Assembly (NCBI GenBank): GCA_048882505.1
Contig: JBHLRO010000030.1
Location: 1 to 32,000, forward strand
DNA length: 32,000 nt
Source of the DNA: Candidatus Thorarchaeota archaeon
GTDB lineage: Archaea; Asgardarchaeota; Heimdallarchaeia; Hodarchaeales; Hodarchaeaceae
Direction: 5' to 3'
The notes under the pieces were generated by a model. That model had not been told where the DNA came from. It saw only the letters and a program-made list of their open reading frames with translations, and did no database searches. Below, one piece after another: positions 18,999-19,416 of the stretch; the first letter of the stretch is position 1; each line of letters opens with the position of its first letter. Position numbers and translations under genes: made by a program.

Positions 18999-19070
18999 GA
19001 CTCTTAGAACCGCCTTTAATTGAATCTAAAGGTACAGAATCTCACGTTGTATCATGACATCGAGATCCTG

Positions 19071-19225
19071 CCGGAAGTTAAGCCGAGTTTCGTTCTGATC
19101 TGTACTGTTATGCGCGAGCTTACGGGAACATCAGAAAACGGGTATTGCCCGTTCATAGGGCTCGAGTAACACCCGGTCTCATTCCGAAAGATATGAAGGA
19201 ATTTCTTCATTCCGGGAACCCGGAA
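19071..19225 (+). rRNA. rrf: 5S rRNA gene, circularly permuted (3' half 19077-19143, ATT linker, 5' half 19147-19188, intron, 19219-19225)
   Basis: Conserved 5S blocks CCGGAAGTTAAGCC, loop E TGTA/GAA, GCGA tetraloop, CATAG and AACACCCGGTCTCATTCCGAA are all present but in swapped order. Helices: I GCCCGTT/AACGGGT, II GGGCTCG/CGAGTTTC, III CCGG/CCGG, V TTCTGAT/ATCAGAA. Confidence 0.9.
19189..19218 (+). other. Putative 30-nt archaeal-type (BHB/BHL) intron in 5S loop C
   Basis: Its removal restores the consensus TCTCATTCCGAA|CCCGGAA. Central helix TCCG/CGGG, AAA bulge, and intron stem GA..ATGAAG/CTTCAT..TC. Confidence 0.7.
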
Positions 19226-19416
19226 ACAGGATCCTCATGTCCATTTACTTGGATATTAGGGATGTGGAGAGTATGTTGTTTTTAGAATAGACATCGAAGG
19301 TTTTCCCCAAGGACCAATGTCCATATTCGTGATTTTTAATGTATATGAATCGATTCTTATCAAAGGAATGAAAAAGCAGATTCAAAATCATTTCAGTTTT
19401 GGTTGGGACTGTTATA

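What the first reader, a model, noticed from the sequence alone, without database searches (positions are those of the whole stretch)
19064..19233. Bulge-helix-bulge-like motif positioned to circularise the 5S precursor and restore the native sequence
Seen: CCGGAA occurs at both ends of the gene (19071-76 and 19220-25). The two self-complementary CCGG can form the 4-bp central helix, stacked on the 7-bp GATCCTG/CAGGATC stem, with bulges AAA (19224-26) and AAG (19075-77). Established: the archaeal splicing endonuclease cuts after the second nucleotide of each bulge. Applying that rule joins A19225 to G19077 and regenerates CCGGAA|GTTAAG. With the intron also removed the circle is 112+7 = 119 nt, the normal 5S size. 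Inference: EndA plus RtcB make a circular 5S, which either stays circular or is reopened at the ATT loop. The exon-side flank is relaxed because G19077 can pair with C19219, leaving a 2-nt bulge.
Basis: partly seen in the sequence, partly recalled or inferred. Interest (0 to 1): 0.88.

Follow-up and report, generated by a model that had tools for sequence, protein, structure and literature searches.

The report
Permuted 5S rRNA gene, splice-joined ends
This Hodarchaeales (Asgard) archaeon encodes its only 5S ribosomal RNA back to front, between cut signals for the tRNA-splicing enzymes that should rejoin it, probably as a closed ring, which explains why 5S genes look missing from these close relatives of eukaryotes.

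Summary
CCGGAA stands at 19071-76 and 19220-25, the 7-bp stem GATCCTG/CAGGATC abuts both copies, and AAG and AAA lie as 3-nt bulges in true bulge-helix-bulge (BHB) geometry.

In this one sequence the motif is not above chance. Its position and its conservation are. The locus is the genome's only 5S gene and is circularly permuted. Most Asgard families sampled have the same layout. The leader-trailer stem and the central helix covary. In 49 of 57 loci the best BHB predicts a join that restores the canonical 12-nt spacing. That holds although the BHB register slides by 1 nt between lineages.

The in-silico circle is 119 nt once a 30-nt insert is removed. It matches a canonical Asgard 5S profile end to end and folds as a 5S. 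The genome encodes a catalytic and a non-catalytic EndA paralogue plus RtcB.

No RNA data could be found. Cleavage, ligation and the final form (ring or reopened) are therefore inferred. The insert at 19189-19218 has its own relaxed BHB and occurs in a second species, so it is a candidate 5S intron.

This scan has already noted permuted Asgard 5S genes in about 47 other genomes. I found no publication on them.

The parts
18991..19009 (+). Putative archaeal promoter (A/T-rich TATA-like box followed by ACTCTTAGAA)
   Evidence: The same motif (TTTAAGGACTCTTGAA type) stands at the same distance upstream of the permuted 5S in other Hodarchaeales loci. Function is inferred; the bacterial-type promoter scan finds nothing.
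19056..19070 (+). Leader strand of the processing stem (outer BHB helix; perfect 7 bp at 19064-70)
   Evidence: Inverted repeat I1 with 19227-41. Homologous columns covary in relatives.
19071..19074 (+). Central 4-bp BHB helix, 5' strand (CCGG)
   Evidence: Pairs with 19220-23. In other lineages this strand is complementary to its partner, not identical (CGGG/CCUG, CGUG/CACG, CUGG/CCAG).
19075..19077 (+). 5' bulge AAG; predicted cut 19076|19077
   Evidence: Geometry. The symmetric-cut rule restores canonical spacing. The cut itself is not shown.
19077..19143 (+). 3' part of 5S rRNA (3' strands of helices III and II, helices IV-V, 3' strand of helix I)
   Evidence: Rfam 5S_rRNA partial match of 20.3 bits. 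Canonical Asgard 5S profile positions 45-109 map to 19071-19136. Fold.
19144..19146 (+). Loop AUU (UAUUG if the U-G pair is open) capping helix I where a normal 5S has its two ends
   Evidence: Fold. Most other families have UNCG-type tetraloops here.
19147..19188 (+). 5' part of 5S rRNA up to the insert (helix I 5' strand, loop A, helix II, helix III 5' strand, start of loop C)
   Evidence: Canonical Asgard 5S profile positions 5-43 map to 19149-19188. Fold.
19189..19218 (+). 30-nt insert in loop C, a candidate BHB-type intron. Central helix UCCG 19183-86 / CGGG 19213-16; bulges AAA 19187-89 and AAC 19217-19; hairpin 19190-19212.
   Evidence: Absent from all other Hodarchaeales loci. Present without gaps in DNA contigs of 4 samples from 3 studies and in species G016, where the only change is in the hairpin loop. 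Only one of the three alignment-compatible registers forms a 4-bp central helix. Removal restores CATTCCGAACCCGG. Splicing is not shown.
19219..19225 (+). Last 7 nt of the 5' part (CCCGGAA); 19220-23 is the central BHB helix 3' strand
19224..19226 (+). 3' bulge AAA; predicted cut 19225|19226
   Evidence: Geometry and the spacing rule. The cut itself is not shown.
19227..19241 (+). Trailer strand of the processing stem
   Evidence: Inverted repeat I1; covariation in relatives.
19277..19284 (+). T-rich run (TTGTTTTT), possible archaeal terminator
   Evidence: Sequence only; inference.

Best explanation
This is the genome's single, functional 5S rRNA gene, encoded in circularly permuted order. 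The 3' part (19077-19143) comes first, then a short loop capping helix I, then the 5' part (19147-19225). A 30-nt insert interrupts the 5' part. Inferred pathway: the transcript starts near 19020, and leader and trailer pair (19056-70 with 19227-41). The leader's CCGG pairs with the CCGG that normally belongs to helix III, so AAG and AAA become the two 3-nt bulges of a BHB. The two-subunit splicing endonuclease, of (alpha-beta)2 type, cuts symmetrically in both bulges at 19076|77 and 19225|26. RtcB joins A19225 to G19077. This rebuilds helix III with its conserved AA bulge and yields a ring. A second, relaxed BHB removes 19189-19218 and leaves 119 nt. The ring most likely stays closed in the ribosome. 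My odds for each step: permuted functional gene 0.97; BHB cleavage plus ligation 0.8; insert spliced out 0.65; ring is the final ribosomal form 0.45-0.5.
For: Gene identity. It is the only 5S-like locus in a 94.5%-complete genome. The two halves of a canonical Asgard 5S profile map here in swapped order. The in-silico circle scores 70.7 bits full length against 32.0 bits for the genomic order, and across loci 46 of 50 circles match full length. The circle folds into the 5S three-way junction.

Selection. A strain about 7% diverged carries only 3 changes in the gene. Two of them turn G-U pairs into G-C pairs in helix II.

Conservation. The layout is the same in 37 of 41 relatives and in most Asgard families sampled, including closed genomes. 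Authors of closed Heimdallarchaeum genomes reported that no 5S gene could be predicted (PMC8813620).

BHB. An objective search gives the canonical spacing in 49 of 57 loci, where 6% is expected. Two registers occur, even within one family. Stem plus central helix are 88.2% paired against 61.8% shuffled and 20-45% slid, and 95.6% against 75.1% and 21-47% in the second set. Compensatory changes occur in 12 of 14 and 11 of 14 pairs.

Enzymes. One EndA paralogue carries Tyr, His and Lys. A second lacks the His. RtcB is present. The (alpha-beta)2 form accepts relaxed BHBs (PMC7714728).

Precedents. The permuted SRP RNA of Thermoproteus is circularised at an EndA site (PMC4731332). Circular 16S and 23S transcripts occur in Asgard archaea, and circular 23S occurs in mature ribosomes (PMC12918454).

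Ring persistence. Helix I is capped by UNCG-type tetraloops in most families.
Against: There is no RNA evidence of any kind. The exon-side helix of the terminal BHB is weak: a strict 3-nt bulge leaves a U-C mismatch, and the alternative gives a 2-nt bulge. About a third of loci have a mismatch at the fourth central pair. Three CCGG copies (19071, 19173, 19220) can pair in alternative ways, and the minimum-energy fold of the precursor pairs the leader CCGG with 19173-76, not with 19220-23. Restoring the native sequence supports precise symmetric cleavage but does not by itself prove ligation. In this genus the helix-I cap is UAUU, not a classic stable tetraloop. The insert's BHB lacks an exon-side helix and has no covariation support, because only two species carry it.
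Confidence: 0.62

Rival explanations
1. The ring is only an intermediate. After EndA and RtcB join the ends, another nuclease opens the ring in the helix-I loop (19143-19147). This gives a linear 5S with conventional ends, as permuted tRNAs of Cyanidioschyzon and circular pre-16S rRNA are reopened.
For: Circular pre-16S and pre-23S are reopened in several archaea (PMC12918454; PMC10515664). In this genus the cap is a plain UAUU or GGUU loop, not a UNCG tetraloop.
Against: In most other families the cap is a tight UNCG-type tetraloop, a poor nuclease target and a sign of selection for a closed hairpin. No conserved processing motif is seen in the loop. One lineage extends helix I with a further stem that again ends in UUCG (L098). 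Circular 23S can persist in mature ribosomes (PMC12918454).
Confidence: 0.17
2. The transcript is cut but not ligated. EndA, or another nuclease acting on the leader-trailer stem, trims it, and a linear permuted 5S with its ends in helix III works in the ribosome, held together by base pairing. Permuted mitochondrial 5S rRNAs of brown algae stay permuted in this way.
For: Permuted mitochondrial 5S rRNAs remain permuted in the final product (PMC4267664). Restoration of the native spacing is equally expected for a nicked molecule.
Against: EndA products carry 2',3'-cyclic phosphate and 5'-OH ends, which are the substrate of RtcB (established knowledge), and RtcB is encoded here. Other BHB-excised RNAs in archaea are circularised (PMC4731332; PMC12918454). 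The nick would lie beside the conserved AA bulge of helix III, next to loop C. The brown-algal ends lie at the junction of domains, not in helix III.
Confidence: 0.1
3. The 30-nt insert is not spliced. It stays as a lineage-specific expansion hairpin on loop C, so the mature RNA is a 149-nt ring or its linear form.
For: Asgard rRNAs carry expansion segments (PMC7758197 citing Penev 2020). Other Asgard 5S genes have inserts elsewhere (L097, L098). The insert's BHB lacks an exon-side helix, and weak BHB look-alikes are common by chance. The 149-nt circle still folds as a 5S with an extra hairpin.
Against: The insert sits inside the most conserved part of loop C. Its limits coincide with a 4-bp helix flanked by two 3-nt bulges in the one register (about 6% expected by chance) that restores the exact consensus sequence. 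A canonical-order 5S gene in a metagenome carries a BHB-bounded insert in the same region (L128).
Confidence: 0.3
4. The locus is a rearranged pseudogene, and the true 5S gene lies in the unassembled 5% of the genome.
For: The genome is a draft of 83 contigs. Rfam scores the locus below threshold.
Against: The same layout occurs in closed genomes that have no canonical 5S. Selection on helices is visible between strains. The flanks covary across families. A conserved promoter-like motif stands upstream.
Confidence: 0.02

Closest known systems
Permuted SRP RNA gene of Thermoproteus tenax (Plagens et al. 2015, eLife; PMC4731332)
   Same: This is a universal structured RNA whose canonical gene seemed to be missing. 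[quoted passage not shown]
   Different: That case is SRP RNA in one crenarchaeal genus and is proven by RNA-seq and enzyme assays. This case is a ribosomal RNA, spread across many families of a phylum, and rests on comparative evidence only.
Circularly permuted tRNA genes (Cyanidioschyzon merolae, Soma et al. 2007; cited in PMC4267664)
   Same: The 3' part is encoded before the 5' part, a BHB stands at the new ends, and expression goes through a circular RNA.
   Different: The tRNA ring must be reopened by RNase P and tRNase Z to free the acceptor end. A 5S has no functional need for free ends, and here helix I is capped by a short loop.
Circular pre-16S/23S rRNA and circular or permuted mature 23S rRNA in archaea (PMC12918454; PMC7758197)
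   Same: A BHB in a leader-trailer stem, EndA cleavage, ligation to a ring, and in some lineages a ring or permuted form kept in the ribosome.
   Different: Those genes are collinear with the mature RNA, so circularisation is not needed to rebuild the sequence. The literature states that 5S is not processed this way (PMC12918454). Only trace circular 5S forms without a BHB have been reported, in Sulfolobus and Pyrococcus.
Permuted mitochondrial 5S rRNA of brown algae (Valach et al. 2014; PMC4267664)
   Same: A 5S whose helix I is closed by a hairpin instead of holding the two ends.
   Different: In brown algae only the alpha domain is rearranged, the ends lie at the three-way junction, there is no BHB, and the RNA stays linear and permuted.
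Canonical archaeal 5S rRNA (Rfam RF00001)
   Same: All domains and the conserved sequence are present. After rotation the match is full length.
   Different: The gene order is permuted, so the Rfam model scores 20.3 bits against a threshold of 38. An extra 30-nt insert is also present.

Membership tests
5S rRNA (Rfam RF00001) | Genomic sequence reaches the family's gathering score | tested here: not met
   20.3 bits against a cut-off of 38; only the 3' part aligns. The permutation explains this.
5S rRNA (Rfam RF00001) | All three domains present and collinear with canonical 5S once the ends are joined | tested here: met
   The circle scores 70.7 bits over profile positions 5-109 of a canonical Asgard 5S profile, against 32.0 bits for the genomic order. 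The circular fold gives helix I, helices II-III with loop C, and helices IV-V.
5S rRNA (Rfam RF00001) | Part of the large ribosomal subunit | not testable with these tools
   No RNA or structural data. It is the only 5S-like locus in the genome.
BHB substrates of the archaeal splicing endonuclease (hBHBh') | 4-bp central helix | tested here: met
   CCGG 19071-74 with CCGG 19220-23. In relatives the first three pairs are always formed and the fourth is unpaired in about a third.
BHB substrates of the archaeal splicing endonuclease (hBHBh') | Two 3-nt bulges on opposite strands, each 3' of its central-helix strand | tested here: met
   AAG 19075-77 and AAA 19224-26. The same arrangement occurs in 47 other loci.
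BHB substrates of the archaeal splicing endonuclease (hBHBh') | Outer helix of at least 2 Watson-Crick pairs on the excised (leader/trailer) side | tested here: met
   7 perfect bp, extendable to 14 bp with two 1-nt bulges. All 10 columns tested show compensatory change.
BHB substrates of the archaeal splicing endonuclease (hBHBh') | Helix of at least 2 Watson-Crick pairs closing the 3-nt bulge on the retained (5S) side | tested here: inconclusive
   With a 3-nt bulge, U19078 faces C19219. If G19077 pairs with C19219, followed by two U-A pairs, the bulge shrinks to 2 nt. This is a relaxed motif of the kind accepted by (alpha-beta)2 enzymes (PMC7714728).
BHB substrates of the archaeal splicing endonuclease (hBHBh') | Cleaved by EndA at the two bulges | not testable with these tools
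   Needs an enzyme assay or RNA end mapping.
Permuted RNA genes expressed through BHB cleavage and ligation | 3' part encoded upstream of 5' part, with the native ends joined by a short linker | tested here: met
Permuted RNA genes expressed through BHB cleavage and ligation | Joining at the predicted cuts restores the native sequence and length | tested here: met
   CCGA-to-GTTAAG spacing is 12 nt, as in canonical Asgard 5S. The circle is 119 nt.
Permuted RNA genes expressed through BHB cleavage and ligation | Splicing endonuclease and RtcB ligase encoded in the genome | tested here: met
   Two EndA paralogues with both Pfam domains, and RtcB at 541 bits.
Permuted RNA genes expressed through BHB cleavage and ligation | RNA molecules that span the junction | not testable with these tools
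   No RNA run was listed for this sequence.
Archaeal BHB introns (for the 30-nt insert) | 4-bp helix flanked by 3-nt bulges whose cuts restore the uninterrupted sequence | tested here: met
   UCCG 19183-86 pairs with CGGG 19213-16 (one G-U pair). The bulges are AAA and AAC. Cuts at 19188|89 and 19218|19 restore the consensus of the relatives.
Archaeal BHB introns (for the 30-nt insert) | Closing helices on both the intron side and the exon side | tested here: inconclusive
   The intron side is closed by 2 bp, a 1-nt bulge and 6 bp. On the exon side 6 unpaired nt separate the motif from helix III, so it is of bulge-helix-loop type.

The most novel reading that the evidence does not exclude
The working 5S rRNA in the ribosomes of this archaeon, and of most Asgard lineages, is a covalently closed ring of about 120 nt. 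It is made by the tRNA-splicing enzymes from a back-to-front gene. In this species a second splicing event removes what would be the first intron described in a 5S rRNA.
Probability: 0.4. Interest if true: 0.9.

Novelty: new variant of a known kind. Interest (0 to 1): 0.8.

Why it matters
5S rRNA is a universal ribosome component, and its gene is treated as trivially recognisable. Yet closed genomes of Heimdall-group archaea were published with the remark that no 5S gene could be predicted (PMC8813620). A permuted gene that yields a normal 5S only after cut-and-join by the tRNA-splicing machinery explains that gap.

It would make 5S the third class of essential RNA known to depend on this machinery through permutation, after tRNA and SRP RNA. 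It would also add a probably circular rRNA to the ribosome of the closest archaeal relatives of eukaryotes.

In practice, annotation pipelines and genome-quality standards that require a 5S gene under-score these genomes, so a permuted covariance model is needed. The window also adds a candidate intron inside 5S. A metagenomic 5S gene in canonical order carries an insert at the very site of permutation, which hints at how the permutation arose.

Tried and rejected
- RNA evidence: two searches for public sequencing runs listed no RNA holder.
- Laying the four best DNA holders showed only that the locus, insert included, is present in other samples.
- Junction search in public metagenome contigs with a genus-specific pattern across the predicted ligation site: 0 hits. 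This shows neither RNA-derived contigs nor a canonical-order gene of this type in that collection.
- A shorter loop-C pattern hit 120 or more contigs, nearly all ordinary 5S genes of other taxa. Two were permuted genes of this genus.
- Rfam at gathering threshold finds nothing at the locus.
- Statistical significance of the BHB in the single sequence: rejected, because such motifs are common by chance.
- I considered resolving the exact cut bonds from sequence and rejected it. A symmetric shift of both cuts gives the same product.
- Eight literature searches found no paper on a permuted archaeal 5S gene, a BHB-made circular 5S, or a 5S rRNA intron.
A profile of canonical Asgard 5S genes served instead.
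- I could not name the Asgard families that keep a canonical 5S, because the genome handles are anonymous.

Full report
WHAT IS THERE. The stretch 19064-19233 reads as stem strand GATCCTG, then CCGG, AAG and the body of the gene, then CCGG, AAA and CAGGATC. The repeat finder returns the CCGGAA direct repeat (19071-76, 19220-25). It also returns an inverted repeat 19056-70 / 19227-41 whose inner 7 bp are perfect. Each 3-nt bulge lies 3' of its own strand of the 4-bp helix. That is the topology of a real bulge-helix-bulge (BHB) motif, as in pre-tRNA. There the anticodon side pairs with the intron, and the bulges hold positions 36-37 plus one intron base, and two intron bases plus position 38 (established knowledge).

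IS IT MORE THAN CHANCE? Taken alone, no. A loose BHB scan of 19040-19260 finds 84 candidates, and shuffled sequence gives about 105. In 46% of shuffles some candidate has a flanking helix of 7 bp or more. The case rests on where the motif sits and on comparison with other genomes.

THE GENE. Rfam finds no 5S at threshold in the window or in the whole 4.3-Mb, 94.5%-complete genome. The only hit is a 20.3-bit partial match here. A profile built from 30 canonical Asgard 5S genes maps positions 45-109 to 19071-19136 and positions 5-43 to 19149-19188. The two parts are therefore in swapped order, and the locus is single copy. Helix I, which normally holds both ends, is closed by a short loop (19144-46). 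The sequence joined in silico at the predicted cuts, with the insert removed, is 119 nt. It scores 70.7 bits full length against 32.0 bits for the genomic order. It folds into the 5S three-way junction as a circle.

A strain about 7% diverged in the flanks has only three changes inside the gene. Two of them convert G-U pairs to G-C pairs in helix II, which shows selection on the fold.

TAXON AND DISTRIBUTION. Loci of the same genus carry record titles Candidatus Hodarchaeota or Heimdallarchaeota, including closed chromosomes. Of 41 genomes from genus to class, 37 show the same split, sub-threshold 5S signal. The two with a normal 5S have it on small contigs.

Among 151 genomes across the phylum, six families keep a canonical 5S. 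The families I sampled among the rest carry the permuted layout over its full length. Wu et al. 2022 wrote of their closed Heimdallarchaeum genomes that 5S genes could not be predicted (PMC8813620). The permutation explains that remark.

THE BHB ACROSS GENOMES. For each of 57 loci I scored all 160 combinations of cut sites near the two ends. I kept the combination with the best central helix and stacked outer helix. In 49 loci the best motif predicts a join that gives 12 nt between CCGA and GTTAAG. That is the value in canonical Asgard 5S genes. About 6% would be expected by chance.

Two registers occur: cuts after GGAA and before GTTAAG, or one base earlier on one side and one base later on the other. 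Both registers appear within one family (L065 against L066 and L067), and both rebuild the same sequence. Where the central helix is not palindromic, the leader strand is complementary to its partner rather than a copy of it: CGGG/CCUG, CGUG/CACG, CUGG/CCAG. This argues for pairing rather than mere duplication.

The formal pair count gives 88.2% paired cells against 61.8% in shuffles and 20-45% when partners are slid. In the second register group it gives 95.6% against 75.1% and 21-47%. Compensatory changes occur in 12 of 14 and 11 of 14 pairs. The eight exceptions have a hairpin inserted between the leader strand and the central helix. They were not resolved.

ENZYMES. The genome encodes two EndA-family proteins with both Pfam domains. 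One has the catalytic Tyr, His and Lys. The other lacks the His, as in (alpha-beta)2 enzymes. It also encodes RtcB. The (alpha-beta)2 form accepts BHBs with varied bulge lengths (PMC7714728). That fits the weak helix on the 5S side, where G19077-C19219 and two U-A pairs leave a 2-nt bulge. ARAGORN predicts many intron-bearing tRNA genes in the genome, so the machinery has other work here.

MECHANISM. The junction lies at the 3' edge of the conserved AA bulge of helix III. In effect helix III is half of a BHB, and the leader supplies a stand-in for its 5' strand. Inferred steps: leader and trailer pair, EndA cuts symmetrically in the two bulges, and RtcB joins the 2',3'-cyclic phosphate and 5'-OH ends. 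The CCGG at 19220-23 then returns to its native partner at 19173-76.

Sequence cannot fix the exact bonds, because a symmetric one-base shift gives the same product. It also cannot prove ligation, since a nicked molecule would contain the same nucleotides. Ligation is the expected fate of EndA products in archaea. The permuted SRP RNA of Thermoproteus is circularised at such a site (PMC4731332). Circular 16S and 23S transcripts were seen in Asgard archaea, and circular 23S persists in mature ribosomes of at least one archaeon (PMC12918454).

RING OR REOPENED? Helix I is capped by UUCG, UACG, UGCG or CUCG tetraloops in most families. One lineage extends helix I by a further stem that again ends in UUCG. 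This looks like selection for a closed hairpin and favours a persistent ring. In this genus the cap is UAUU, which is less telling. I put the persistent ring at just under one half.

THE INSERT. Relatives read CATTCCGAACCCGGAA without interruption. The window has 30 extra bases. Three placements of the insert fit the alignment. Only one forms a 4-bp helix (UCCG 19183-86 with CGGG 19213-16) with the 3-nt bulges AAA and AAC. About 6% would be expected by chance. Its cuts at 19188|89 and 19218|19 restore the consensus. The intron side is closed by a hairpin. The exon side is separated from helix III by six unpaired bases.

The insert is no assembly artefact. It is present in contigs from four samples of three studies. 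It is also present in a second species of the genus, where the single change lies in the hairpin loop. I read it as a probable intron (0.65). No paper with the phrase '5S rRNA intron' turned up.

WHAT IS KNOWN. I found no report of a permuted archaeal 5S gene or of a BHB-made circular 5S. Recent work states that 5S, unlike 16S and 23S, is not circularised (PMC12918454). Only trace circular 5S forms without a BHB are mentioned for Sulfolobus and Pyrococcus. Earlier notes of this scan describe the same arrangement in about 47 other genomes and reach the same reading, also without RNA evidence. This report adds five things: the two-register spacing test, the formal covariation counts, the strain comparison, the second species with the insert, and a canonical-order 5S gene with a BHB insert at the permutation site.

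VERDICT. It is a new variant of a known kind, namely permuted RNA genes repaired by the splicing machinery. Interest is high.

Noticed in passing
L128:3087-3230 (metagenome contig Ga0209542_10089373): This is a 5S gene in canonical order that carries an insert of about 43 nt exactly at the site where Asgard genes are permuted. The insert is bounded by CCCG-GAA and CGGG-AAA, so symmetric cuts restore CCGAACCCGGAAGTGAATC as in its uninterrupted relative L169. It may be the kind of intron-bearing ancestor from which a permuted gene could arise by duplication.
   Followed up: partly
L004, L005, L025-L027, L029, L094, L095 (family f3) and L075, L076 (family f18): In these loci a hairpin of about 27-30 nt is inserted between the leader strand of the processing stem and the central helix. 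The 3' bulge therefore faces a three-way junction instead of a continuous helix. In L075 and L076 the insert is flanked by a repeat of CGTGAGAG. It may be a second intron or a variant recognition structure.
   Followed up: partly
L097:230-423 and L098:230-424: Two AT-rich Asgard 5S genes carry inserts of about 30 nt elsewhere. One lies in the helix IV-V region (L097). The other is an extension of helix I that again ends in a UUCG loop (L098).
   Followed up: no
L246:170-260 (G008:C16): A truncated second copy of the leader plus the first 60-70 nt of the permuted 5S lies about 350 nt upstream of the complete gene. It has its own promoter-like motif and is probably a decaying duplicate.
   Followed up: no
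G016:C27 end (L242) and G016:C32 (L247); also L013, L014, L017: Several draft genomes break their contigs inside or right at the permuted 5S gene. In G016 the gene is split over two contig ends that overlap by 28 nt.
   Followed up: partly
window 19071-74, 19173-76, 19220-23: Three CCGG copies can pair in alternative ways. The minimum-energy fold of the precursor pairs the leader copy with 19173-76 rather than with 19220-23. Formation of the BHB may therefore need protein help or an ordered folding pathway.
   Followed up: partly
whole genome G000 (ARAGORN): ARAGORN predicts introns in 23 of 39 tRNA genes. Some predicted introns are 300-1800 nt and may be false calls or large inserted elements.
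   Followed up: no
G005:C310:995-1109 and G023:C798:1536-1644: These are the only above-threshold 5S genes among the class-level relatives (about 80 bits). Both lie on very small contigs and may be contamination from other organisms.
   Followed up: no
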